Below are positions 2,673 to 51,503 of a DNA stretch of 64,000 nt, in pieces. Origin of the DNA: Pelagomonas calceolata (taxonomy: Eukaryota). Position 1 is the first letter of the stretch; every line of letters starts with the position of its first letter. The position numbers were made by a program, and so were the translations under genes. Location of the stretch: contig CAKKNE010000006.1 in NCBI GenBank assembly GCA_918797485.1, positions 3,100,001 to 3,164,000 on the forward strand, read 5' to 3'. The notes under the pieces were generated by a model. That model did not search any database. It saw only the letters and a program-made list of their open reading frames with translations, and was not told the DNA's origin.

Positions 2673-5165
2673 CTAACTACCCGAGGCGTATGTTTCTAGA
2701 AGATCGACGATGGCCGAGTGGCCCTCGTTGGTTGCTGCACTCATCGGCGTGTCGCCGTCGTCGTTCTCGCGGTCCAGGTCAGCCGTTGCACCGCTATCTA
2801 GCAAAAGGCGGGCTATCTCGATGTGCCCCTCATAGCAGGCCGCGTGAAGTGGCGTTGTGTCGTCCGAGTCGCTCCTGTGAACGTCGGCGCCGCGGTCCAG
2901 CAATAGTCGCGCCACGTCCACGTGACCTGCATCGCACGCGACGAAGAGTGGCGTTGTGCCGTCAGGAAGCACCCTATTGACTTCCGCGCCGTCGTCCAGG
3001 AGCCGCGTTATCGCGTCGACGTCGCCTCTCTTTGCCGAAAGATGCAGCGGGGAGTTTATGAGGGCGCTCACATTTTCAAGCTCTTCCCGGCAATCGACAG
3101 TCTCCGAATGGTCCGGGCCGTAGGCACTTTCGTTGATCACGAGTGCACGCTCTAAGATCTCGCGTTGCTTGACAGTGTCGCCGAGGTTCTCGTGCACCAT
3201 GGCGAGGTTCCAAAGCGTAGTACCTACCTCCACATGATCGGGCCCGTACGCCCGCTCCTTGATCGCAAGCGCGCGCTCCAGCATGTCTCGCTTCTTCGCG
3301 TGGTCGCCTAATTTACCGTACGCGGCCCCGAGGTTCGTCAGCGTGATGGCCACGTTCGGGTGGTCGCGGCCGTATGCTCGCTCCTTGATCGCGAGCGCGC
3401 GCTCCAGCATGTCTCGCGTCTTCGCGTGGTCGCCTAAGCTTCCGTACGCTTTCCCGAGGTTCGTCAGCGTGATGGCCACATTCGGGTGGTCGCGACCGTA
3501 TGCTCGCTCCTTGATCGCGAGCGCGCGCTCCAGCATGTCTCGCTTCTTCGCGTGGTCGCCTAAGCTTCCGTACGCGTTCCCGAGGTTCGTCAGCGTGATG
3601 GCCACTTCCGGGTGGTCGCGGCCGTACGCCCGCTCGTTGATCGCGAGCGCGCGCTCCAGCATGTCTCGCTCCTTCGCGTGGTCGCCTAAGCTGCCGTACG
3701 CGCTCCCGAGGTTCGACAGCACGGCGGCCACTCGCGTGCTGTCCTTGCCATCGCGCTCATTGATCGCGAGCGCGCGCTCCAGCATGTCTCGCTTCTTCGC
3801 GTGGTCGCCTAAGGATCCGTACGCGTTCCCGAGGTTCGTCAGCGTGGTGGCCACATTCGCGTGGTCGCGGCCGTACGCCTCCTCGATCGCGAGCGCGCGC
3901 TCCAACACGTCGCGCTGCTTGGCGTAGTCGCCTAATTGGCCGTACGCGCCCCCGAGGTTATTCAACAATCCGGCCACGTTCGTACTATCTTTACCGTACT
4001 CGCGCTCGTAGATCGGGAGCGCCCGCTCCACCACCTCAAGCCTCTTGGCATTGTCGCCAAGGTCCCCGTACGCGCGCCCAAGATCCCACAGCGCCACGCC
4101 CACCGCCTTGCTATCCGCGCCGAACGCGCGCTCCTGCTCCGCCAAGATAGCTTCCCGGACCTTCACGACGCCCGCGAACTCCTGGATTGACTTGAGCAAC
4201 TCGCAGAGCCCATCCAACAAATTCGCGTCCGCCTCGGACCCAAGCACATGGTCCACCAACTCCTCCACATCTTTCGCCTCGTCGACGGGCAATTTGCACA
4301 GCATCTCGAGCCGCTGCGCGACGGCGTCTGAATTGCCCAAGAAAAACGACCGGAAGTACTCGTAGACCGTGTGGCTCTGGTGCAGCGCCTCCGACTCTTT
4401 GATCGGCATGAGATGAATTTGCAGCTCGCACATGTGCGACACCTTCTCAACTTTCACGGCGACGTTCATCAAAATATCCTGATAGCCGTTGAAGAGCGGC
4501 GGCGCGAACCGGTTCTTCGTCCGCACGATATCAACGCGGTCGTCGGCTTCGAGCGATGCGTAGAGCTGCACGATGGCGTCCTCCGTCTGACAGAGGGCCG
4601 CGCCGCGCGTAATATCGAAGAGCCAACTGTAGCACGGCGCCGTCTTGTCCGCGTACTCGTCGCGCGCCTTGGCGCCGGCGCGGTCGCGGCCCTTCAGCGG
4701 CGCGAACATCAGCTTCACACCGCTTTCAGGGCACGCGGCCGTCATGATCTCCTCGAACTGCACCCTCGCCAGCGCGGCGACCTCGTACAGCGCGTCGAGC
4801 GACGCGGCCGGCTCGCCGTCGAGGCCGCACTGGCGACACTCGTCTCCTAAATTCTTGCCCACCCAGGGGATCTTCTTCACATCGCCCTTGATGTGCTCGC
4901 GCGCGATCTCGTCGATCTGCTCCCGCGCGGCCTTGAATGCCTTCAGGTTGTGAAACATGCATTTCCGCGGGTCGAGCGCGCGCTCGTCGTGCTCCTTGGC
5001 GTGGGCCTCTATCGTGGGCCACGGCACCGTGCGCGTCCCGTCCGCGCCCTCGGTCGCGGCCGCATCGAAGGCTCGCTTCGCCTTGTCGTCGAAGAGGACG
5101 CCGACCTCGCTTTTTAGCCTTACTTCGGTGAGCGGTTTCTTGTCGGTCGACGCGCCCGAGCCCAT
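2673..5165 (-). CDS. RelA/SpoT-like nucleotidyltransferase + 42-aa TPR array + ankyrin repeats, with an N-myristoylation motif
   Basis: 830-aa intronless ORF starting MGSGAS. NTase motifs LKGRDRAGAK, LFDITRG, KNRF, GYQDILMN, CELQIHL, HTVYE. About 8 kinesin-light-chain-type TPRs, then 3-4 ankyrin repeats (TPLFVAC, TPLHAAC). Confidence 0.85.
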   Translation of the reverse strand: MGSGASTDKKPLTEVRLKSEVGVLFDDKAKRAFDAAATEGADGTRTVPWPTIEAHAKEHDERALDPRKCMFHNLKAFKAAREQIDEIAREHIKGDVKKIPWVGKNLGDECRQCGLDGEPAASLDALYEVAALARVQFEEIMTAACPESGVKLMFAPLKGRDRAGAKARDEYADKTAPCYSWLFDITRGAALCQTEDAIVQLYASLEADDRVDIVRTKNRFAPPLFNGYQDILMNVAVKVEKVSHMCELQIHLMPIKESEALHQSHTVYEYFRSFFLGNSDAVAQRLEMLCKLPVDEAKDVEELVDHVLGSEADANLLDGLCELLKSIQEFAGVVKVREAILAEQERAFGADSKAVGVALWDLGRAYGDLGDNAKRLEVVERALPIYEREYGKDSTNVAGLLNNLGGAYGQLGDYAKQRDVLERALAIEEAYGRDHANVATTLTNLGNAYGSLGDHAKKRDMLERALAINERDGKDSTRVAAVLSNLGSAYGSLGDHAKERDMLERALAINERAYGRDHPEVAITLTNLGNAYGSLGDHAKKRDMLERALAIKERAYGRDHPNVAITLTNLGKAYGSLGDHAKTRDMLERALAIKERAYGRDHPNVAITLTNLGAAYGKLGDHAKKRDMLERALAIKERAYGPDHVEVGTTLWNLAMVHENLGDTVKQREILERALVINESAYGPDHSETVDCREELENVSALINSPLHLSAKRGDVDAITRLLDDGAEVNRVLPDGTTPLFVACDAGHVDVARLLLDRGADVHRSDSDDTTPLHAACYEGHIEIARLLLDSGATADLDRENDDGDTPMSAATNEGHSAIVDLLETYASGS
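3180..4100 (-). repeat. Coding tandem array of 126-bp TPR units
   Basis: gatcgcgagcgcgcgctccagcatgtctcgc recurs about every 126 bp; two units are one codon short. Confidence 0.9.
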
Positions 5166-27409: not shown

Positions 27410-29107
27410 TTATGGTGGCTTAAAGCTCGCGCCGTCGCCGGGGAGCGGCCGCCGTCTACCGCGCGGCGCCGCGAGGCCGGCGGGTTCTTCCGCGAGCTCC
27501 CGCGCCGAGGCGTTCCGCGGCGGCCGGCAGCACTTTTCGCCGGCGGCCACGCGCCGGGAGATGGCGTCGAAGAGCGCGCGCGCGACCGCCAAGACTTCGT
27601 TCTCGGCGTCGCAGAGCTCGGCGTCGATGTAGTCCAAGACGGCCGGATCGGGCGCGCAGTTGATGCCGGTGCAGGCGTTCCGGTGGGGCGGGCGCTGGCG
27701 GGGCTCGTGGAGGACCGGGGAGAAGAAGCTCGGGAAGGCGCACGCCAGCAGGTCCAGCGTGTCGCCGAAGCGGTCGATGAAGCCCCAGACCGCGTAGTCG
27801 CGGAGGTGGTCGATGGACGCCTCAATCGTCGCGTTCTCGCTGCCGCCGAGGAACTTCAACGCCGTGTTCTTCATCGACCGGAGCATGCCGCCGTACGCGC
27901 CCCGGGCGCAGCTCACGTTCCGCAGGCAGCCCGCGTCGAGGTCCTTGTGCGTGTACACGAGCTTCGAGTACGAGCGCGGGGCGCAGGACCGGAGGAGCTG
28001 GAAGCGCCCGAAGCTCGTGCCGAAGCCCTCGAACTCGGGGTCGAAGTACACGTGGCCCGTCACGAAGACCGACGCGCCGCCCGCGGCCTTCTGCCGCACG
28101 TACTCCCGCTCCTTGATCGCGAGCGCGCGCTCCAGCATGTCGCGCTTCTTTGCGGGGTCGCCTAAGTTGCCGTACGCGTTCCCGAGGTTATTCAGCGTGC
28201 GGGCCACGTTCGGGTGGTCGCGGCCGTACGCCCGCTCGTCGATCGCGAGCGCGCGCTCCAGCATGTCTCGGGACTTGGCGTGGTCGCCCAAGTCGCCGTA
28301 CGCGTTCCCGAGGTTATTCAGCGTGCGGGCCACGTTCGGGTGGTCGCGGCCGTACGCCCGCTTGTCGATCGCGAGCGCGCGCTCCAGCATGTCTCGGGAC
28401 TTGGCGTGGTCGCCCAAGTCGCCGTACGCGTTCCCGAGGTTCCCCAACGTCGTGGCAACGGCAGTGTGGTCGCGGCCGTACGCCCGCTCGTCGATCGCGA
28501 GCGCGCGCTCCAGCATGTCTCGCTTCTTCGCCTGGTCACCCAAGTCGCCGTACGCGTTCCCGAGGTTATTCAGCGTGCGGGCCACGTTCGGGTGGTCGCG
28601 GCCGTACGCCCGCTTGTCGATCGCGAGCGCGCGCTCCAGCATGTCTCGGGACTTGGCGTGGTCGCCTAAGTCGCCGTACGCGCCCCCGAGGTTCGTCAGT
28701 GTCTTGGCCACTTCCGGGTGGTCGCGGCCGTATGCCCGCTCGTCGATCGCGAGCGCGCGCTCCAGCACGTCTCGCGCCTTGGCGTGGTCGCCTAAGTCGC
28801 CGTACGCGCCCCCGAGGTCCCGCAGCATCTTCGCCCGGGCGGCCGGGTTGCGCTTCAAATTGTCCTTCCACTGGCTTGGCGCGAGGCCGAGGAACGCGCG
28901 CTTCGGAGTCTCGCGCGCGTACCTCTGAGCCGTGTTGTCCATCGTCGTCGAGCCGCACTTGCCGAGCTTGTTGTAGAAGATGACGTGTGGTTCGGGCGTC
29001 GCGCTTGTCCTGGCGCACCAGGCGGCGGCCAGGGCCTCGGCGTCCTGCGCGGCCGCCGCCGCGCCGCAGCCGAGGAGGAGCAGCGCGACGCCAGCGAGCC
29101 CGCGCAT
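27410..29107 (-). CDS. Secretory-pathway sulfotransferase-like protein interrupted in frame by a TPR array
   Basis: Signal peptide [14 protein letters not shown]. 5'-PSB-like IFYNKLGKCGSTT lies before the repeats; FVTGHVYFD and LLRSCAPRSYS lie after them. Confidence 0.75.
   Translation of the reverse strand: MRGLAGVALLLLGCGAAAAAQDAEALAAAWCARTSATPEPHVIFYNKLGKCGSTTMDNTAQRYARETPKRAFLGLAPSQWKDNLKRNPAARAKMLRDLGGAYGDLGDHAKARDVLERALAIDERAYGRDHPEVAKTLTNLGGAYGDLGDHAKSRDMLERALAIDKRAYGRDHPNVARTLNNLGNAYGDLGDQAKKRDMLERALAIDERAYGRDHTAVATTLGNLGNAYGDLGDHAKSRDMLERALAIDKRAYGRDHPNVARTLNNLGNAYGDLGDHAKSRDMLERALAIDERAYGRDHPNVARTLNNLGNAYGNLGDPAKKRDMLERALAIKEREYVRQKAAGGASVFVTGHVYFDPEFEGFGTSFGRFQLLRSCAPRSYSKLVYTHKDLDAGCLRNVSCARGAYGGMLRSMKNTALKFLGGSENATIEASIDHLRDYAVWGFIDRFGDTLDLLACAFPSFFSPVLHEPRQRPPHRNACTGINCAPDPAVLDYIDAELCDAENEVLAVARALFDAISRRVAAGEKCCRPPRNASARELAEEPAGLAAPRGRRRPLPGDGASFKPP
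28104..28823 (-). repeat. 714-bp TPR cassette (about 5.7 units of 126 bp)
   Basis: Near-identical units, closely matching the array at 3180-4100; bounded by tcccgc at 28104 and 28818. Confidence 0.9.
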
Positions 29108-29379
29108 GGCGCGCGCACGTTAAGGGGCGGCGCCGCGCCGCGTGCCGCGCTATCGGGCTGCGTTTTGAGGGTGGCGAGACGACGTGCGCAGCTGTTATAA
29201 ATGCCCAAAATTTGCGAGGCTGCAGTGATGGTGATGTTAAAGACGTACGCCGATCTTGGCGCATATAAGTTTTGATGCGGCCGCGCGCGAGCGGCTCAAA
29301 GTGGCGCCACTGCACCCGCACGAGCCCCCATGGTGGCGCCTCCCAGGGTGGCGGTATACGGTCGAACACCAATTACATA

Positions 29380-42624: not shown

Positions 42625-43002
42625 TGTGAGTCGTGGGGCTGCCTCGTTCGATGAGTGACCGCCCAAAATCTGCTCATGGCTCTGGGCGCTGCGACCCGTT
42701 TTTTGTGGTTTTTGCGGTCGGCGGCGCAGCAGCGGGCCCCGTGGCTCTAGGGCACCTATAGATCACTAGCCGAGCGGGTAGCGGCACTTAGACAAACGAC
42801 CTGCTTCACAGGTTTGAGCATTGGGCGCTGGCGCTGTGCGCAGCGCGCAGCGCACACGGCCGCCGGGGCTGCCCAACGACTCTAATCGACCAGTCTGAGG
42901 CTCAAGGATGCTGCCCGGTGACCGATCTGAGCGCTGCCGTGAGCGGTGAGTCCGCTCGTGCACGCTATTGACTGAAGCTCTCACGACCTTGGCGCGCAGC
43001 CC

Positions 43003-44458
43003 ATGGACCTCAAAGTGAGCCCGGCAGCCGAGGACACACCAGAAGCAAAAGCACCGCTGCTGGACCTCGAAGCCGTCGAGCGACGGGTTCGGACCCTCGA
43101 GACCGACGCCCGGACGCCCGATGAGCCGACGCTGCACCATCTCGCGACGCGCGAGCCCACCAGTTTTCACCAGACCACAATATACTACGGGTTGCAACGC
43201 GAGGACACGCCGCCGTGGCGCAAGTACGGGCTCCTGGCCACTAGTATCGGAATCGTGTTTCTGCAGTGCTTCGTCGCTGTTGGACTTGCCCACGGGGTCA
43301 CCTTTAGCACGTGCAGCGAGCATTCCGATTGCTCACGCGGCACGTTCTGCGAGGGGGGCATGTGTGAATGGTGCTATGGGCCACTCAGACCATGCTGTCA
43401 AACCAACTCGACAGACACCTGCGTGCTGGACGAAAAGCAAACAACAGAAGAAGGAGGATTTAGCGATGAATTGAGAGAAGAGAAGAATAGGGAAGCTATG
43501 TGCGCCGCGTGCACGACCAGCAAAGGATTCGAGACTCTGCAGGACGTTGTGAAGGACCGGATGGAATCCATGATGCTTCAGGACTGGCTGACGCTCTTCT
43601 TGGCATCGTTAGTCGTCGCCTGTGCATAAATCAACCAGTGAGCGTCGATGGCCGATGCGACGATTCAGCACGAACGCGCCTGAAATTTTGATTTATGCAC
43701 AGGTCGTCGCGTTCGCCGTGTTCGCAGAGATACGGGATTGTATGCTGTGCGAGATCGCCTTGCGAGAAATATCAAAGCGGCGGGAAGTCCCACGAGGCTG
43801 GCGATATGCCATAAATGGCCTTAATTATGCCAGGTATATCTGTCTGCTTCCAAATATAATTTACTCAGTCATGGCACTTGTATATGAGGACGGCGGGCGA
43901 GTGAAATACTTGTGTCTCAATACCGTTGCAGTACTCTTTTTGTTAGAGGTGGATAACCTGGCGTTTCTGCACGGTCTCGGCGAGCGCACCCGCATGGAAG
44001 CAGAGCAACATGCTCATTCGGGGGCACGCGTCACGGAAGATGACCTGCAGCTCATGGGCGTGGTAAAGCTCGTGTGCGTGATCCTCATCCCCTGCACCGT
44101 TCTCGTCGGCGTCTGTGGCCATAGCTGGGTTCCGGACGAGCCCGACACTTTTATTATTGCGTTTTTTCCTTTACCGTCTATTGCCGTGCTGTTCGTGCAG
44201 CGTGTGATGGCGAGTAGACGCAAGCTCAAGGGGGCCTGCAGCGGGCTCGGCTGGGCAATTCTCAACTACTCTATGTATGGCGTATGGGGGGGTTGTTTTT
44301 ACGCGGTGACGTACATGCAAGCCCAGGGACCAGAGGTCGTTCTTAGTTGGGGACCATTGCCATATGCGCTCGCGGCGATGCTTGCACTGACGCTCGTCAT
44401 ATCGATTCTCACGGATTTCCCACCCTCGCCGTCGACTGCGTCTTCGGGATTGTCATGA
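43003..44458 (+). CDS. Multipass membrane protein with a Cys-rich loop
   Basis: Two ORFs joined by introner intron 43612-43702; many TM segments; LNTVAVLFLLEVDN. Confidence 0.8.
43612..43702 (+). mobile_element. Introner intron (element 43620-43702)
   Basis: Perfect TSD gtcgtcgc and perfect 15-bp TIR ctgtgcataaatcaa / ttgatttatgcacag. Confidence 0.95.
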
Positions 44459-45375: not shown

Positions 45376-45431
45376 GAGTGTAGGAATGTATATTGTGGTG
45401 CTTACTAGATCACCACCAAAGTATGCCACGC

Positions 45432-48400
45432 CTAGCAGCCACCTGGAGCATCATCATCTCCGTAGTAGTATCCGTCGTCGTCATCCGAGCAGGCGTCCGG
45501 CAGCGCGGCGACGGCCGAGTCGCGCGCGATGATGTAGCCGCCCCAACCTGCGTCTGACACGCACTGGCAATCGTCCTGGCAGAAGCACCAGCCGTCGTCC
45601 TCCCACCAGTCAATTGCCACGAGAGCGTCGCCGAACTCGTCTATGCATATATTCCAGCAGTCGACCGGCGACGCCGCGCAGCCCATATCCTGATCCAGGT
45701 CGCTGTAACACCAGCCTGCGTCTCCGTGGTTCGTCGTGCCGCTCAGTGAGGAGGTGATGTCGCCCGACAGCTCGCAGCTTCCATCGGTTACGCCCTGACA
45801 CGTTTCATGATACCCGCATGTCCAAACCCCCTCGCATTCATCGATGGTACCATCGAGGTCATTGTCCCAACCCCACGAGCCCGTTGCCGGGTTACACCTA
45901 GGAAAGCCGCCCATAGCCACCGTTAAGTCGTACGGATCACAGCCTGAGTTATCACAGGAGTCGCACCTCTCTCCGTGCCACATATGTCCGTTGTCGAGGC
46001 ACTCCATCGTATAGAAGCCGCTCTGACATCGGCCTTCACATGGATTGTCGCTGGTGCACGTGCCTTGATACTCGACGCCGCCGAGGTCGACGTCTCTCGT
46101 GTAACACACGGTTTTGCTCCCAGTGAGCGCGTCGATCGTATGCGGCGTACCGACTGGTCGGAGGTAGCACTTTTGGATTTCTCCGCCGACGCATTCGCAA
46201 AGACTGCCGTCGCCCGAAATTATGGCGGCCTTCGACCAGGTCATCCCCGCGCACTGGTTGAGGCAGTCTTGGGGCGTGCTAGCGGGCAGGAACATTTCTG
46301 TCAGGTACTCCACGTGCGGGCCCTCCGTGTAATCATAGCAATCTCTTGCCCGGAAGGATAGGTCCAGGGAGGAGTAATCTGGAGGATCCATCCGCGCAAA
46401 CATGGAGCAATGGGCCTTGCGCCAACCGGTGCCCTCATCATCCGACCAACACGAATAGCCATCACCTAGGTGAAAGTCGTCATCTTGACCGTCGCACCGT
46501 TCGTCTAAAATGTATGAGTCGCAGACGCCCTCTTCACACATAAGGAAAGGCTGGTCGCAGCCCGGTGTAGCCGCGCAGTCCGCGTAGCAGCTCGATTTTG
46601 CCTCACAGTCCTCGTCGGTCTCGCAGTAGCCGTCCAGGTCGTTGCCCCACTCGTTGCAAAATCCAGTTCCCTCCTCCCCTAATTCTTTATCCTCACACCA
46701 ATCGAAATCGGCGCACCACTCGTCGACGGGTTCATCGGCGCACTCCACCGACAGGACGTAATCGCCGGCAGCAGACGCGCCACGCTCGTTGTCCTCCCAG
46801 CACTCCTGGTCCGCATGTCCGGTGACCTGCAGCACATACGTCTCGCCGGCATCTAGTGGCCCTCTGGTCCAGACATTCTCGAATTCCCTGGACGAACTTG
46901 GAGATTTAAACACGCAGGTCTCCCATCCTTTATCGTTCCACGTTCCGAGCACGTTCGCGTGACCCGCGCCCGGTGCTGGCGCCCGCAGGCAGGTGTCAAG
47001 GGTACTGGAATCCTGTACCTGATATAGGTATAACATCGTATCGAAACTCGATCCGCAGGTCGAGAAGTGATAGTACGCGGTCTCAGAAGGCGTGATCAAA
47101 TAGAAGTGATCGGGCGCGTCGTTGCCTGAGAGCCAGTGCGCCTCGTGAACCGTGGAACCAGTTCGAGTCTCTCCGCACGCGATAGTCTGGACAGGAAGTG
47201 ACGACGTCGGGGCCAGCGACGACGTCGGAACGGCGGTGGTCGGGGCTCGAGAAGGCTCTGGCGAGAACGTCGGCGGGGCTGTGACACCGCCTACGTAGAT
47301 GCGCGTAAACGAAGGCTCGTCGCGGCAATGGCCTAACGCTCCTTCCAACTGATGTTTGGCGTTGCAGACTGCCCCCGACGACCATTTGGTGGCGCCGAGG
47401 CCTAAGAAGCTATCTGATGACATGCAGTTCTCGAGTTCATTAAACCAGATCCCGAGGCGAAGTCTGCAGCTATAGTCCGAAACTTCAACATAACAGCCGT
47501 CCGCGGCCACGTTAAAGCCCTGGCGGTTGCAGTTTTCTTGGTACCCCGCGTTCGGCACGAGGCCGCGCCATTCTTCTAAACTGGCCGACGTTTTCGTGTA
47601 GCCACCGGCAAATAATTCTTTCAGGCTCTTCGGGTGACTGAGCTCGATGATAAGCGTCCTCTCCTCGGACCCCGTCCGCATCAGGACCGTAAACGTGGTC
47701 GAAGGCGTGAAGAATGCGTCCGTCTTCGACTCTCCGCCCTCGTCCAAAAGCTCGTCGTTTGTCCAGAGCGGCGCATCGTAGTAGAAAGTGTCTTTCGTGC
47801 CATCGATTGCCAGAGCCAGAGGCAGGTCCAGGTCCATGGTCGGCTTTGGTGAAACGGAGGGCGCCACCGTCGTCGGTTGTGGCGTCGGCCACGTCCAGGC
47901 GGAGCCCTCGGCCAGCTCGCAGACGAAGGGATGCCGGACCTCCATATCGCAGAATGTGGCGTGCCATTGTCCAAGTGTGGACTGATAGGCGCAATCGAAG
48001 CCCTGGGAGGCGCCCGGGCGCTTGTACCATTCACTGAACGTCGTCGCGTCGCCGGAGGTCCACTTCCAGGACCCGTCGCCTCCCTGCCTGTCGTAGCCGA
48101 TCCAGAAGTCTCGACATCCCATGAGTTCGTTCATCGCGTCCAGGTCCGCCTCGGATCTAATGGTCACTAGGTGCGCGCTGCCGGACGCCCTCACCCACGG
48201 GCTCTCGCAGTACTTCTTCGCATCGTTCCAGGAGAGTTCGATCCCCTCCGGGACATAGTACGAATCCAGCTGTTCGTCAGTGACAGTCGTGCATTGGTCC
48301 GGGATCCCATAGCACGAACACGGCGTGATGTGAGGAATGTGTCGATATTCGCTGCAGAAGAGTTCGTCTCGGTCAACTCTCACGTGGATACCAGCACCGT

Positions 48401-51122
48401 CGCGGCGGGCACCGTCGAACGCGCCGCACTTCACTTTTGGTTTCGATCTAATCGCATTTCGCTGGAGCTCGATGAAACGGATCGAGTCGAGGCCCTCAAA
48501 GGTCCGGGGCTCGAGTTCGTCGATCTTATTGTTCTTCAAGTAAAGTTTTTCGAGGTTCGGGAGCCCTTTGAAGGCTCCCGGGCGGATCTCGGTGATGCCC
48601 TTGTTACTAAGGTAGAGTTCTTCGACGAACGCATTCACGTTTAGTCCGTCCACCAAGGTCAACGACTCCGCTTCGGCGAACACGTCGCAATTATGGAGGA
48701 CGCCATCAGCGTCGCATTCACACGGCTGGCACGTCGAGAACACAGCGTTACCGGAAAGGTAGAGCATGGTCGAGCCGACGACGCATCCGGCCGTAATAAC
48801 AAAGTACGCGGCAGCGCCCCAGCGCGGGAGGCGGCCGTGTTCGGCCGCCACAGCCGCGCGCGTCTGCGGCCCCGTATCCGTTTCCGGCGCAGAAAATAGG
48901 ACTAGGGCTCCGTGAGCGACGAGAGCGAAACTCAAGAACACGGGGCTGGCGCCGGCCCAGAATATCGCTATGTAAACCGGACCGAGGCCGAGGGCCGGCA
49001 TCCACGTCGAGAACGACGGCCGCCCGGCGGCGCGCGCCGCCAGCGGCAACGTTAGACTCATCACAAAGAAGAACGCGGTAGCAGTGATCTGCAGCTCGAG
49101 GCCAATCGCACAGATTGCCACGCACCACGAGGCGACGCACGTGACGACGAGCGCCACATACAGCTGCGGCGCGTATTTGCGGGCTGATACGGCCCCGTCG
49201 CCGGCCGCGCCCGGTGCCGCGGCCGCGCCTTCCTCATCGTTTGGTACTTTGTCTGACGCACCCGACGCCGTCGCGACGGCTACTTTTCGCAGCGCCCGCC
49301 GTTCTTCCGCCGCGCTCTCTAGCACCGATATGACAAAATGAGCGTGGAGCATGGGAAATAGGTTGCTAGTGTACTCAATTGGGTCGTGAGGTATGATCAT
49401 GGGCTGGCTCCGGACGCCCAGCGCGAGAAATACGAATGGCACGAGGGCGTAGATGACGTCGAGCACCGTGTCAGCAATAAATGAGAAGTTCCGCTGATAG
49501 AATACGTGCCGCGACCGCAGAAGGAAGGTTGGGTAGAGGACGTTTACCAACAGCGCCGCGAAGAAAAATATCACGAACGCGTGCAGGAAGGAAGCGCTCC
49601 GGCCCTCGCTCATGGCCTTCCCGAAGCTTTTTGTACAGGTGGCCCGCAGGCAGTCGAAGGGCGACGACCAGATGAGGAATAGCGGTATTTTTCCGTAGGA
49701 CTGCAGGAACACCTCGAAGATTTGGAAGCAGAAGATCTTCCAGACAAACAGCGTGCCGTCGTAGCCGAAGTAGCGCTCGTAGAGCATCGCGACGCGCGTC
49801 TTCTCGTGCCGCTGCTGCCGCGCCTTTTCGCCAAAGAAACCGGCGGCGCGACACAATAGATAGGCATTCGCCCAATACGGCGCGGCCAGAATGAGGCCGT
49901 ACACCCGCAGTAAGACGTAGGGTGGACCGAACCCGCGCGTCGGTAACAGGTCCGCCCGCTTGACGATGAGATTGGCGCCTTTGAGCACGAACGCGTCGAC
50001 GTAGAGCCAGCCGATCACGACGCTCAGCGCCGCGGGCACCATCCTCGCGACGAGGTAGGTGACGCCCTGGCGGCGCACTGAGGCCGTGCAGGTGGTGTTC
50101 TCGACCGGCGGCTCGAGCACGCCCATCAAGTCCATCTCTCGTGCATACTCATAAGCGACGTGCTGCCGTTCGGCGATGGACAGGATCGCCCGGAGGTGAA
50201 TCTGCAACTCGGCGATGAATCCATGGTAGAGAAGGCTGACATTGACGTCGCGATACCCCGACGGCGTCGGATGCCCCCGAAACCGGTTCTTGATTTGGAG
50301 CACTTTCACGGTGCCGGCCGCCTCGAGAGCCCTCAGCTCATCTCCGAGCGTCTGTAACTCGGCCACCGTCTCGCACACGATCGAGGCCCGCAACACGTCG
50401 CGCAGGCGCTCGCCCCTGCCGCCGTAATCCACGGCGACCTTCTCGCGCGCGCGAAACAACTTTTTGAGCTGCGAGGTCTTGGTCTCGCGCGATGCCTCTG
50501 TCGGTGCTCGGCCCGCCCGCGCCAGGCGCTCGACGACTTCCACCTCGAAGCTAGCGAGCCGCGCGCGCGCCAGGACATACAGGCGCCGCAGCTCAGACGT
50601 CGACTGCACGAGCTGCTCATCTTCGCGTGCCTGGGGCTCCGGCCCCGCGTCGGCGTCTTCCACGCCTTCGAGGCACGCTTTAGTGGCCGTGTCGAAGAGC
50701 TTGCTGATCTTGTCGACGTCCTCGATCGTGACCACGGTGCCGCGGATCGTCGGGATCAAGTAGAGCACCGCGACGACGTAGAGCACGAGCGCGGCGATCC
50801 AGGCGGGCGCCGCGGTGGCGACGCTCTTGGTGAGGAACCAGAAGAATACGATGAGCCCCGTCGAGCCGACGAACACCGAGAGTACGAGCCGGTCGCTGGT
50901 CTCGAAGTAGCTCATCACGAGCGTCACCAGCGCGAGATAAGACCGCCGCTGCAGCCGCCCGGTCTTCGCGGCGACGGCAGAGTTGAGCCAGCCGGCGGAG
51001 CACGCCGAGCAGTAGCCGCTCTCATTGCCGTGGAACGCTCCGCAGCGGCCACATGGGTACGGCGCCTCGGCAGCCTCCGCCTCGTCCAGCAGCGGGGATT
51101 TCACGCTGCCCCCCTCCGCCAT
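45432..51122 (-). CDS. Receptor-like protein: A20-like zinc finger, TM helices, RelA/SpoT-like NTase, multipass TM block, LRR, C-type lectin and further Cys-rich ectodomains
   Basis: 1896-aa intronless ORF. NTase motifs LKKLFRAREK, LRDVLRAS, KNRF, GYRDVNV, AELQIHL, HVAYE. LRR LEKLYLKNNKIDEL. CTL SWNDAKKYC...HLVTIRS...FWIG...WKW...FVCE. Confidence 0.85.
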   Translation of the reverse strand: MAEGGSVKSPLLDEAEAAEAPYPCGRCGAFHGNESGYCSACSAGWLNSAVAAKTGRLQRRSYLALVTLVMSYFETSDRLVLSVFVGSTGLIVFFWFLTKSVATAAPAWIAALVLYVVAVLYLIPTIRGTVVTIEDVDKISKLFDTATKACLEGVEDADAGPEPQAREDEQLVQSTSELRRLYVLARARLASFEVEVVERLARAGRAPTEASRETKTSQLKKLFRAREKVAVDYGGRGERLRDVLRASIVCETVAELQTLGDELRALEAAGTVKVLQIKNRFRGHPTPSGYRDVNVSLLYHGFIAELQIHLRAILSIAERQHVAYEYAREMDLMGVLEPPVENTTCTASVRRQGVTYLVARMVPAALSVVIGWLYVDAFVLKGANLIVKRADLLPTRGFGPPYVLLRVYGLILAAPYWANAYLLCRAAGFFGEKARQQRHEKTRVAMLYERYFGYDGTLFVWKIFCFQIFEVFLQSYGKIPLFLIWSSPFDCLRATCTKSFGKAMSEGRSASFLHAFVIFFFAALLVNVLYPTFLLRSRHVFYQRNFSFIADTVLDVIYALVPFVFLALGVRSQPMIIPHDPIEYTSNLFPMLHAHFVISVLESAAEERRALRKVAVATASGASDKVPNDEEGAAAAPGAAGDGAVSARKYAPQLYVALVVTCVASWCVAICAIGLELQITATAFFFVMSLTLPLAARAAGRPSFSTWMPALGLGPVYIAIFWAGASPVFLSFALVAHGALVLFSAPETDTGPQTRAAVAAEHGRLPRWGAAAYFVITAGCVVGSTMLYLSGNAVFSTCQPCECDADGVLHNCDVFAEAESLTLVDGLNVNAFVEELYLSNKGITEIRPGAFKGLPNLEKLYLKNNKIDELEPRTFEGLDSIRFIELQRNAIRSKPKVKCGAFDGARRDGAGIHVRVDRDELFCSEYRHIPHITPCSCYGIPDQCTTVTDEQLDSYYVPEGIELSWNDAKKYCESPWVRASGSAHLVTIRSEADLDAMNELMGCRDFWIGYDRQGGDGSWKWTSGDATTFSEWYKRPGASQGFDCAYQSTLGQWHATFCDMEVRHPFVCELAEGSAWTWPTPQPTTVAPSVSPKPTMDLDLPLALAIDGTKDTFYYDAPLWTNDELLDEGGESKTDAFFTPSTTFTVLMRTGSEERTLIIELSHPKSLKELFAGGYTKTSASLEEWRGLVPNAGYQENCNRQGFNVAADGCYVEVSDYSCRLRLGIWFNELENCMSSDSFLGLGATKWSSGAVCNAKHQLEGALGHCRDEPSFTRIYVGGVTAPPTFSPEPSRAPTTAVPTSSLAPTSSLPVQTIACGETRTGSTVHEAHWLSGNDAPDHFYLITPSETAYYHFSTCGSSFDTMLYLYQVQDSSTLDTCLRAPAPGAGHANVLGTWNDKGWETCVFKSPSSSREFENVWTRGPLDAGETYVLQVTGHADQECWEDNERGASAAGDYVLSVECADEPVDEWCADFDWCEDKELGEEGTGFCNEWGNDLDGYCETDEDCEAKSSCYADCAATPGCDQPFLMCEEGVCDSYILDERCDGQDDDFHLGDGYSCWSDDEGTGWRKAHCSMFARMDPPDYSSLDLSFRARDCYDYTEGPHVEYLTEMFLPASTPQDCLNQCAGMTWSKAAIISGDGSLCECVGGEIQKCYLRPVGTPHTIDALTGSKTVCYTRDVDLGGVEYQGTCTSDNPCEGRCQSGFYTMECLDNGHMWHGERCDSCDNSGCDPYDLTVAMGGFPRCNPATGSWGWDNDLDGTIDECEGVWTCGYHETCQGVTDGSCELSGDITSSLSGTTNHGDAGWCYSDLDQDMGCAASPVDCWNICIDEFGDALVAIDWWEDDGWCFCQDDCQCVSDAGWGGYIIARDSAVAALPDACSDDDDGYYYGDDDAPGGC

Positions 51123-51503
51123 AAAGCTGCCTTCCTCACTGGTTATTCGTGGATAGCAAGCAGATGTTCATATTCGATGTCTCGCGACACTGGTGCCAAT
51201 ATCTGTGCGCGGTTTTACGCAGCTGTCTTTTAATCCCAAACTCTAAAATCTGCCCAGGTATCCTGAGTAAGATAGTTAGCCCACCGATCCCTCCTGCTTT
51301 GCGCTTACTCCATGCTGGTGTTGGGAGGTGTCTAGCAGTATACGCCTCGGTACAAGCACGACGTCCAACGGGTACAATCTGGTAGAGTTACGAGGGATAG
51401 ACGCGTCCCGGACTCGTCAATCAGCTCGTCAATCCCTACAGTACGCCGTTTTGACGCACTGGAGTCCGTGCTAAAGGGGCTAGCTCACTATTCAAAACAA
51501 AAA

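What the first reader, a model, noticed from the sequence alone, without database searches (positions are those of the whole stretch)
45432..51122. Candidate receptor nucleotidyltransferase: RelA/SpoT-like domain coupled to LRR and C-type lectin ectodomains
Seen: at about 50140-50590 the ORF has five motifs in the order of RSH synthetase motifs: LKKLFRAREK, LRDVLRAS, SGYRDVN, AELQIHL and HVAYE. About ten hydrophobic segments follow, then a Cys cap, LRRs, a C-type lectin domain and further Cys-rich domains. Known: eukaryotic RSH enzymes are mainly plastid-targeted long RSHs, and LRR and CTL domains are pattern-recognition modules. There is no plastid leader or HD hydrolase domain here. Inference: a surface receptor that makes an alarmone-like nucleotide, or modifies RNA, on ligand binding. 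That could be an algal immune or sensing pathway; I know of no characterised example.
Basis: partly seen in the sequence, partly recalled or inferred. Interest (0 to 1): 0.92.

Follow-up and report, generated by a model that had tools for sequence, protein, structure and literature searches.

The report
Algal surface receptor with alarmone enzyme
A tiny marine alga has an intact, transcribed gene, one of a conserved family, that joins an enzyme domain related to bacterial and phage alarmone-making toxins to many membrane spans and to leucine-rich-repeat and lectin-like domains, so it is likely a surface receptor that would make a bacterial-type alarm nucleotide inside the cell when something binds outside.

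Summary
ORF 45432-51122(-) is one 1896-aa frame. PolyA reads cover it on the coding strand without introns, and the named members of its 90% cluster are Pelagomonas calceolata proteins. Residues ~170-335 have the RelA/SpoT synthetase fold (VIA Z 13.6 to SAS2, 11.3 to Tas1). By sequence they are nearest to Tas1/Apk-type (p)ppApp toxins (family profile: Tas1 E 1e-19, SAS2 5e-10), not to canonical long RSH. It is not a one-off: 15 of 89 long relatives scanned also carry LRRs. Membrane-type members form one clade (99/99), and 13 of 14 keep all 13 core residues at 31-47% domain identity. Charge asymmetry predicts enzyme inside, LRR outside. A second gene in the window (2673-5165) fuses the same domain to TPR/ankyrin repeats. 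Best reading: a ligand-controlled receptor pyrophosphokinase, probably making (p)ppApp, in defence or microbe sensing. Activity, product, ligand and role are untested. Nine paper searches found no such receptor; the nearest precedent is RelA_SpoT on cytosolic fungal NLRs.

The parts
45432..51122 (-). Intron-less gene, 1896 aa (P0001): Zn-knuckle, membrane block, Apk/Tas1-like RSH synthetase, multi-pass membrane module, LRR, lectin-like and further Cys-rich domains
   Evidence: Open frame; stranded polyA reads, no joints or indels; exact contigs from a second study, RNA a guess; full-length 1899-aa relative on an independent 9.5-kb contig (9, 55)
51000..51062 (-). N-terminal Cys/His knuckle (C24,C27,C38,C41); resembles an A20-type zinc finger (recalled), predicted cytosolic
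   Evidence: Pattern found in 10 of 10 relatives examined; Pfam did not call zf-A20 at E<=1
50742..50942 (-). N-terminal membrane block, three hydrophobic helices (aa ~61-75, 79-98, 107-127); the number of true crossings is unresolved
   Evidence: Hydropathy, AF2 helices, conserved across the family (56), flank charges
50118..50615 (-). RelA/SpoT-type synthetase domain of the Tas1/Apk branch (aa ~170-335), core residues K220 R224 K228 D242 R245 K278 G289 Y290 D292 E305 Q307 H321 Y324
   Evidence: Foldseek 30 of 31 rows shown are RSH; VIA Z 13.6/11.3; profile to Tas1 E 1.1e-19; conservation
49848..50057 (-). Membrane hairpin a-b after the enzyme (aa ~356-425)
49308..49757 (-). Conserved four-helix membrane module c-f, preceded by the family motif R-V-x-L-L-Y-x-x-Y-F-G; no Pfam, Atlas or structure match
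   Evidence: Alignment; 21-70% identity across relatives; no hit
48888..49157 (-). Four extra membrane helices (aa ~656-745) found only in the query's subclade; low model confidence
48753..48818 (-). Last membrane helix g, basic residues on its N-terminal side
   Evidence: net K+R-D-E +2.21 before, -0.26 after
48438..48737 (-). Cys cap (C-x-P-C-x-C) and leucine-rich repeats, predicted extracellular
   Evidence: Pfam LRR_8 E 6.5e-17 (5); VIA matches to TLR/Slit/VLR ectodomains Z 7-9.6 (91); cap conserved
47916..48236 (-). C-type lectin-like domain without canonical sugar-binding motifs
   Evidence: Pfam Lectin_C E 5.5e-15 (5); sequence
47313..47825 (-). Domain that is probably fibrinogen-related (indirect)
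   Evidence: 41% identical over 152 aa to P0263, whose adjoining N-terminal part hits Fibrinogen_C (E 2.6e-7), and 35% to an octocoral protein; no Pfam hit on the query itself
45435..47180 (-). Acidic, Cys-rich C-terminal modules, shuffled among paralogues; unassigned
   Evidence: No Pfam or PDB hit; pieces recur at other positions in relatives
2673..5165 (-). Second gene of the same enzyme family in the window: MGSGAS start (myristoylation-like, recalled), RSH domain at ~4341-4805, near-identical TPR repeats, ankyrins; a predicted cytosolic sensor-effector
   Evidence: Six-frame profile hit E 2.8e-21 (108); translation; Pfam TPR/Ank; RelA_SpoT E 0.025 (132); TPR clade 100/97 (120)

Best explanation
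This is a multi-pass membrane protein with a Tas1/Apk-like RelA/SpoT synthetase domain and an LRR/lectin-like C-terminal region, and it is likely a cell-surface receptor enzyme whose predicted cytosolic domain would transfer pyrophosphate from ATP to a nucleotide 3'-OH, most likely making (p)ppApp, when the predicted outer domains bind a ligand. Shown: gene integrity and transcription, fold, kinship to Tas1/Apk, an intact active site, and a conserved enzyme-membrane-LRR architecture with variable outer parts. Predicted: topology (enzyme in, LRR out). Inferred: the enzyme is held off at rest, because unregulated Apk enzymes drain ATP; binding is relayed through the conserved membrane module; the product acts as a second messenger or, at high level, stops growth of the cell; and the trigger is a microbe, virus or other non-self surface. 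The TPR-ankyrin gene at 2673-5165 would be the cytosolic counterpart. Rough odds by step: fold 0.98, active enzyme 0.9, opposite-side topology 0.85, ligand control 0.65, adenosine product 0.5, defence role 0.5.
For: Fold. Branch: Tas1 ranks first in 4 of 4 sequence-profile or relative-based PDB searches and has the highest identity of the RSH rows in VIA (26%). The only annotated phage found by tblastn (2 records of one phage, 34.5%, E 4e-12) encodes the domain between a portal gene and a 69-aa ORF plus an HD hydrolase, the toxin-immunity-hydrolase order described for Apk2 (PMC10083569 section 5). MuF, PAAR and eCIS fusions are among the relatives. Active site: D242 158/158, E305 154/154, R245 156/158, K228 154/155 (the numbering printed there is 5 too low); 13 of 14 LRR-bearing relatives keep all 13 core residues and the 14th begins after the first three; E305 aligns with the Glu of Tas1's E-x-Q motif. 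Architecture: 15 of 89 long relatives carry LRRs; 18 membrane-type domains form one clade, 99/99 (120). Topology: net charge alternates as expected at 6 of 7 conserved helices between enzyme and LRR; 18 of 23 countable rows have an even number of helices between the enzyme and the basic RVxLLY loop; Cys-rich inserts fall in loops predicted outside (P0026, P0091, P0053). The AF2 model of aa 15-901 has pLDDT 79, pTM 0.77. Variability: against its paralogue, enzyme 92%, lectin-like 80%, C-terminus 70% identical; parts after the LRR differ between relatives.
Against: There are no activity, product, ligand or localisation data. Structure alone does not single out Tas1: SAS2 and SAS1 (ppGpp makers) and CapRel (tRNA) score Z 13.6, 12.7 and 11.8 against Tas1's 11.3, and the tree backbone between the receptor clade and the toxin groups is unresolved. 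The query differs from the family at two conserved sites (A317 where 134/151 have K; R236 where 125/158 have D). Helix c shows no charge asymmetry, 5 of 23 rows give an odd helix count, two rows give 5 helices between f and g, and the three N-terminal segments do not fit a simple parity. The predicted ectodomain has 0 N-glycosylation sequons against 4.7 expected, and 22 against 34.8 over 17 family members. RNA depth over the enzyme half is low (2-9x in one run, zero in several bins of the other three; one sample; paralogue reads can map), and no record bridges enzyme and LRR. No cognate hydrolase was found; the whole genome was not available.
Confidence: 0.55

Rival explanations
1. Same receptor enzyme, but the product is (p)ppGpp or another nucleotide used at low level as an ordinary second messenger for non-immune sensing (prey or partner bacteria, mates, nutrients).
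For: The top structural scores are SAS2/SAS1. The gene is expressed in culture-type polyA libraries and in field RNA assemblies. The family is deep and its membrane core slow-evolving.
Against: Sequence profiles favour Tas1 by about nine orders of magnitude over SAS2. The family reads GY-x-D-x-N/L, whereas E. coli RelA/SpoT read GYQSxH (96). Sister architectures are TPR sensors and phage/T6SS toxins.
Confidence: 0.2
2. The receptor pyrophosphorylates an RNA 3' end (tRNA CCA, as FaRel2/CapRel do) and blocks translation as a suicide defence.
For: CapRel Z 11.8 and FaRel2 entries among the structure hits. tRNA-targeting toxSAS are sensor-fused anti-phage effectors (PMC11245113 passages). The query lost a conserved Lys near the acceptor end.
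Against: No tRNA-type toxSAS appears in the sequence-profile PDB hits, and PADLOC gives no match for the query domain (104). The basic patch that FaRel2 uses was not tested.
Confidence: 0.12
3. The topology differs: the enzyme faces the outside or a vacuole lumen with the LRRs, or the protein is an adhesin whose enzyme is not controlled by binding (for example acting on engulfed or attached bacteria).
For: Three N-terminal hydrophobic segments after a basic N-terminus would, if all cross, put the enzyme outside. There is one sequon in the enzyme domain and none in the ectodomain. An anti-bacterial use was proposed for fungal NLR RelA_SpoT (PMC4986451).
Against: Charge alternation downstream. 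The enzyme needs ATP (established RSH chemistry). In the AF2 model, LRR-protein matches extend to the loops after helices c and e, which the topology puts outside (ranges starting at model residues 470 and 557; indirect).
Confidence: 0.08
4. A dead enzyme domain used as scaffold, or a gene-model artefact joining neighbours.
For: The query misses the Pfam RelA_SpoT model, and no record spans the whole message.
Against: One uninterrupted 5.7-kb frame; the same order in 15 separate 50%-identity clusters; invariant catalytic set; continuous stranded coverage in run X24, 24 of 24 bins.
Confidence: 0.05

Closest known systems
Tas1/Apk1 (PAAR T6SS effector) and Apk2 (MuF phage toxin), (p)ppApp synthetases
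   Same: Nearest characterised enzyme by sequence (E 1.1e-19; 26% in the structural alignment); shared N-terminal helix and K..R..K...DY.G..D..R and GY..VN..E.Q motifs; relatives with PAAR, MuF and portal-linked immunity/HD-hydrolase genes.
   Different: Those are delivered prokaryotic toxins with adjacent immunity genes. This is a eukaryotic multi-pass membrane protein with outer LRR/lectin-like domains and no delivery domain; its flanking genes are a signal peptidase and an ankyrin/2OG-oxygenase gene (5).
Fungal NLRs with an N-terminal RelA_SpoT effector domain (Dyrka 2014, PMC4986451)
   Same: An RSH synthetase used as the effector of a putative eukaryotic non-self receptor with repeat sensor domains; the window's TPR-ankyrin gene follows the same logic.
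   Different: Those are cytosolic with a NACHT domain and no LRR, and are known from annotation only. Here there is no NOD in either gene, and this one is membrane-spanning with an LRR. Kinship of the two RSH domains was not tested.
Plastid long RSH of plants and algae (RSH1/RSH4; Avilan 2019, PMC6881373)
   Same: Synthetase fold; same broad algal lineage.
   Different: No HD, TGS or ACT hit; the N-terminus is a Cys knuckle plus membrane block; the motif differs; E. coli RelA/SpoT sit on a very long branch away from the family (96, 120). Plastid RSH themselves were not in the tree.
Small alarmone synthetases SAS1/SAS2 and toxSAS (FaRel, FaRel2, CapRel)
   Same: Same fold, Z 11.8-13.6 (91); CapRel also couples a sensor to the enzyme.
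   Different: Small soluble bacterial proteins; weaker sequence match.
Receptor enzymes with LRR ectodomains (Toll-like receptors, LRR receptor kinases, receptor guanylyl cyclases; recalled)
   Same: Outer LRR with Cys cap matching TLR/Slit/VLR ectodomains and an inner signalling domain.
   Different: The enzyme is N-terminal, the protein is multi-pass (about 13 crossings predicted), and the output domain is an RSH; no kinase, TIR or cyclase hit.
XopAD/SKWP effectors' C-terminal RelA/SpoT-like domain (Zhang 2012, PMC3482391)
   Same: The query domain hits NCBIfam PRK09169 at E 1.2e-5 in that region.
   Different: Those are injected bacterial effectors with SKWP repeats; only the domain is shared.

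Membership tests
RSH synthetase superfamily | Synthetase fold | tested here: met
   VIA Z 13.6, rmsd 3.1 A over 151 aa to 6fgk_A; Foldseek E 1.9e-5 (45)
RSH synthetase superfamily | Catalytic Asp, Glu and basic ATP-binding residues | tested here: met
   D242, E305, K220, R224, K228, R245 present and near-invariant; aligned to Tas1 and SAS2. Which residues are catalytic is recalled.
RSH synthetase superfamily | PF04607 over the curated cut-off | tested here: not met
   No hit for the query; close relatives 23-26.5 bits against 27 (33); the phage relative passes at 30.6 (89). This is a model limit, not a fold test.
RSH synthetase superfamily | Pyrophosphate transfer from ATP to a 3'-OH | not testable with these tools
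   Needs an assay
Apk1/Apk2 (p)ppApp synthetases | Toxin domain closer to Tas1 than to SAS | tested here: inconclusive
   Met by sequence, tied by structure, tree backbone open
Apk1/Apk2 (p)ppApp synthetases | PAAR or MuF delivery domain and adjacent immunity gene | tested here: not met
   No such Pfam hit and no such neighbours
Apk1/Apk2 (p)ppApp synthetases | Makes (p)ppApp and depletes ATP | not testable with these tools
   Needs nucleotide profiling
Plastid long RSH | HD domain (intact or degraded) with or without TGS/ACT | tested here: not met
   No such hit at E<=0.05 (5); membrane helices occupy that position (69)
Plastid long RSH | Bipartite plastid leader | tested here: inconclusive
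   No predictor was run; the first 60 residues hold no hydrophobic segment
Fungal-type NLR with RelA_SpoT effector | Central NACHT/NB-ARC domain | tested here: not met
   No such Pfam hit in either window gene (5, 132)
Surface pattern-recognition receptor | Sensor domains outside, signalling domain inside | tested here: inconclusive
   Charge alternation and parity support it; sequon counts do not; no dedicated topology predictor was available
Surface pattern-recognition receptor | Binds a non-self ligand and triggers a response | not testable with these tools
   Needs experiments
Ca-dependent sugar-binding C-type lectin | EPN/QPD and WND motifs | tested here: not met
   Absent from the sequence of aa 956-1075 (127); motifs recalled
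A20-type zinc finger | C-x2-4-C-x11-C-x2-C and a Pfam zf-A20 hit | tested here: inconclusive
   Spacing x10; no Pfam call at E<=1 (33); one relative has x4/x11 spacing

The most novel reading that the evidence does not exclude
Marine algae and other protists run an undescribed alarmone-based immune or sensing system built from captured phage/bacterial Apk toxin domains: surface LRR receptors (this gene), cytosolic TPR sensors (the second gene in the window), kinase fusions and double-enzyme membrane proteins (Guillardia), all of which make (p)ppApp as a cytosolic second messenger or death signal. This would be a eukaryotic receptor class and messenger alongside receptor kinases, cyclases and TIR NADases.
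Probability: 0.35. Interest if true: 0.95.

Novelty: categorically new. Interest (0 to 1): 0.85.

Why it matters
Alarmone signalling in eukaryotes is known from plastids, and how picophytoplankton sense viruses, bacteria or grazers at their surface is largely open. A conserved family that wires an outer LRR/lectin-like sensor to an intact alarmone-type enzyme gives a direct test: one 170-aa domain, known catalytic mutants and established nucleotide assays. If active, it points to a cytosolic (p)ppApp-type messenger in eukaryotes and to a toxin domain turned into a receptor output. The domain family is large (4439 clusters at 50% identity with E<=1e-3, prokaryotic ones included) and mostly below the Pfam cut-off, so databases name this cluster only 'C-type lectin domain-containing protein'. 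The parts are known; the receptor class was not found in print in searches, which cover only open-access papers.

Tried and rejected
The whole genome is not held, so paralogues were not counted and no hydrolase partner was sought genome-wide. The first AF2 model (29 close sequences) was poor in the membrane part (pLDDT 48) and was replaced by a 45-sequence model; Foldseek with the better whole model gave no row at E<=0.001, best 1.4e-3, all rows shown RSH. The membrane module found no match in Pfam, the Atlas or the VIA list, but it was not folded alone, so no claim of a new fold is made. That it resembles oomycete membrane-LRR proteins is my recollection and was not tested. Scans of bacterial genomes for relatives could not be set up, because the alignments had no stretch conserved enough. 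The viral scan gave 4 loci; I read one, a phage portal-linked gene. Viral fold search: the best rows are phage polyvalent proteins, with giant-virus rows weak (E>=0.15). A single origin of all eukaryote-type members was neither rejected nor shown (AU p 0.31; labels by architecture, taxon unknown for most). GC3 does not mark the gene as a recent import (0.75, against 0.69-0.88 for six other window genes). Sequon counts did not support the outside assignment. PADLOC: no match for the query domain. Earlier-finding look-ups returned nothing. The Tas1 primary paper was not held. bioRxiv supplements were closed. Of Avilan 2019's supplements only term hits were seen (no 'LRR' or 'lectin' in its domain table), and the Ahmad 2023 dataset of Tas1 homologues was not read; either may list eukaryotic members.
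Full report
1. The gene. The minus-strand frame 45432-51167 is open from stop to stop; from the ATG at 51122 it encodes 1896 aa. Pfam finds LRRs at 834-891 and a C-type lectin domain at 963-1069 but no RelA_SpoT. The named members of its 90%-identity cluster are Pelagomonas calceolata proteins, among them a 2473-aa paralogue on another contig, all labelled only as lectin-domain or unnamed proteins. Raw polyA reads from four runs of one sample (6-12% of each run read) lie on the coding strand, while the convergent neighbour shows the opposite strand. Run X24 covers 24 of 24 bins of the frame and the other three cover 23, 19 and 17; there are no joints or indels, depth falls towards the 5' end, and nothing lies in the last upstream bin. 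Depth over the enzyme half is only 2-9x in X24, and reads of the paralogue can map. Contigs from a second study (RNA is a guess there) match exactly from 45429 to 51213 in pieces, the longest 3609 nt; no piece bridges enzyme and LRR.

2. The enzyme domain. A single-sequence PDB search gave Tas1 only at E 0.29, but with every motif in register. Five relatives at 57-60% domain identity hit PF04607 below its cut-off. Profiles settle it: close relatives only, Tas1 E 0.016 as the sole hit; a mixed profile, Tas1 1.4e-8 and SAS2 1.4e-4; a 20-sequence family profile, Tas1 1.1e-19, SAS2 4.7e-10, RelSeq 3e-3. In the AF2 models, 30 of 31 Foldseek rows shown are RSH enzymes, and VIA gives Z 13.6 for SAS2 (rmsd 3.1 A, 151 aa), 12.7 for SAS1, 11.8 for CapRel and 11.3 for Tas1, which has the highest identity, 26%. 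Structure therefore fixes the fold but not the subfamily. Across 158 non-redundant domains, D242 (158/158), E305 (154/154), R245, K220, R224, K228, G289, Y290, D292, Q307, H321 and Y324 are near-invariant and present in the query (whose printed numbering is 5 too low; 47 near-copies were dropped from 205 domains). The query departs at A317 and R236. The only annotated phage found by tblastn carries the domain (34.5%, E 4e-12) between a portal gene and a small ORF plus an HD hydrolase. That is the toxin-immunity-hydrolase order that PMC10083569 (passages and section 5 read) describes for the (p)ppApp synthetase Apk2.

3. A family, not an oddity. The profile finds 4439 clusters at E<=1e-3; I examined the best 150, and scanned the 89 new ones of 330 aa or more. 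Of these, 15 carry LRRs, 10 TPRs, 3 kinases, 2 MuF, 2 eCIS core and 1 PAAR. The LRR-bearing ones share the same order: a three-segment membrane block, the enzyme, two or four helices, a basic R-V-x-L-L-Y-x-x-Y-F-G loop, four more helices, a last helix, a Cys cap and LRRs. Thirteen of 14 examined keep all 13 core residues at 31-47% domain identity; the 14th begins after the first three, and P0179 was left out as a fragment. In a 57-row tree, 18 membrane-type domains form one clade (99/99), the backbone is open, and E. coli RelA/SpoT lie far away (a 156-row FastTree gave 97 for the corresponding clade; Tas1 and plastid RSH were not in either tree). Named relatives outside this clade are Guillardia theta proteins with two membrane-enzyme units and a Pylaiella TPR protein. 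The hosts of the divergent LRR members are unnamed, so the taxonomic range of the receptor is not known. Outer parts vary: the paralogue is 92% identical in the enzyme, 80% in the lectin-like domain and 70% in the C-terminus, and other relatives lack the lectin or carry Cys-rich modules in a membrane loop.

4. Topology (predicted). Net K+R minus D+E in 12-residue flanks, averaged over 19-24 rows, alternates from the enzyme to the LRR: a +0.79/-0.46, b -0.62/+0.83, c 0/+0.09, d -0.17/+1.38, e +1.48/-0.35, f -0.73/+0.90, g +2.21/-0.26. With the query's four extra helices, this gives 11 crossings, enzyme inside and LRR outside. Eighteen of 23 countable rows have an even helix count between the enzyme and the basic loop. 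The 45-sequence model of aa 15-901 is confident overall (pLDDT 79, pTM 0.77), and LRR-protein matches extend to the loops after helices c and e (indirect). Against this: helix c is neutral, five rows count odd, two rows give five helices between f and g, and the three N-terminal segments need one non-crossing helix. Glycosylation sequons are fewer than chance in the predicted ectodomain (0 against 4.7; 22 against 34.8 over 17 proteins).

5. A cytosolic counterpart. The family profile finds a second copy in the window at about 4341-4805 (E 2.8e-21), inside a gene that starts MGSGAS and continues with near-identical TPRs and ankyrins. It is 31% identical to the receptor's domain and falls in a TPR clade (100/97). 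One genome thus pairs the same enzyme with an outer LRR sensor and with an inner TPR sensor. Its expression was not checked.

6. Mechanism. Shown: the points above. From established RSH chemistry: pyrophosphate transfer from ATP to a 3'-OH; Tas1 and Apk2 make (p)ppApp and drain ATP, whereas FaRel2 and CapRel modify tRNA (PMC11245113, passages). Inferred: the enzyme must be off at rest; binding to the LRR, lectin-like or fibrinogen-like parts (the last an indirect assignment) is relayed through the conserved membrane module; and the product signals or halts the cell. I put the receptor-enzyme reading with an adenosine-type product first (0.55), a ppGpp-type or non-immune messenger at 0.2, tRNA modification at 0.12, another topology at 0.08, and a dead domain or artefact at 0.05. 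Hydrolase-only RSH were reported in Aureococcus and Emiliania (PMC3153485, passages) and could be the off-switch; this was not tested.

7. What is known. RelA_SpoT is listed as an N-terminal effector of fungal NACHT NLRs (PMC4986451, passages; PMC10197012, passages); a later survey found no cluster with adequate coverage (10.1101/2022.03.16.484565, passages). RelA/SpoT-like toxin domains on MuF proteins and XopAD are described in PMC3482391 (passages), and the query hits that XopAD-type region. Algal RSH surveys cover plastid-type long RSH (PMC6881373: passages, section 8 and supplement term hits) and mention unplaced SAS in diatoms. Nine searches of open-access papers (listings only) showed no membrane receptor with an RSH domain. 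UniProt's automatic 'RelA/SpoT domain-containing' label on Guillardia members shows that the domain has been machine-noted in protists. The protein works like an Apk-type enzyme and like an LRR receptor, but fails the membership tests for Apk1/2, plastid RSH and NLR.

8. Verdict. This is a real, expressed gene of a conserved family that I did not find described. The architecture is strongly supported, the topology is predicted, and the chemistry and role are untested. Interest 0.85.

Noticed in passing
window 2673-5165 (-): Second Tas1/Apk-like RSH gene, fused to near-identical TPR repeats and ankyrins, with a myristoylation-like start; an NLR-like effector-sensor without a NOD.
   Followed up: partly
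window 27410-29119 (-): TPR array of the same repeat type as the gene at 2673-5165, inserted in an ORF with a signal-peptide-like start whose flanks look sulfotransferase-like (recalled, no Pfam call); it suggests a mobile TPR cassette.
   Followed up: no
window 45653-45685: About 60-120 RNA reads per run match only this short stretch and run on into other sequence: a more highly expressed gene elsewhere shares this Cys-rich module.
   Followed up: no
proteins P0192-P0196: Full-length database proteins that are mosaics of this gene and its paralogue P0191 by region: either chimeric assemblies or real recombinants.
   Followed up: no
proteins P0063, P0096, P0105, P0030, P0079, P0102: A separate clade with two enzyme domains, in most members each behind a membrane block (three are Guillardia theta), an adenylyl-cyclase-like layout (recalled) that hints at paired enzyme domains.
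   Followed up: partly
proteins P0093, P0135, P0170, P0101, P0140: The same domain fused to protein kinases, a globin and an annexin-bearing giant protein.
   Followed up: no
L001:3401-7411 (Bordetella phage PHB04): Portal, then an RSH protein without a Pfam MuF hit, a 69-aa ORF and an HD hydrolase: an Apk2-like cassette whose RSH gene is annotated only as hypothetical.
   Followed up: partly
window 42976-44458 (+): Two adjacent open frames with a Cys-rich stretch and several hydrophobic segments and no Pfam hit; probably one spliced membrane-protein gene.
   Followed up: no
window 47235-47825 (-): Fibrinogen-like domain shared with an octocoral protein and a prokaryote-looking lipoprotein-like protein.
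   Followed up: partly
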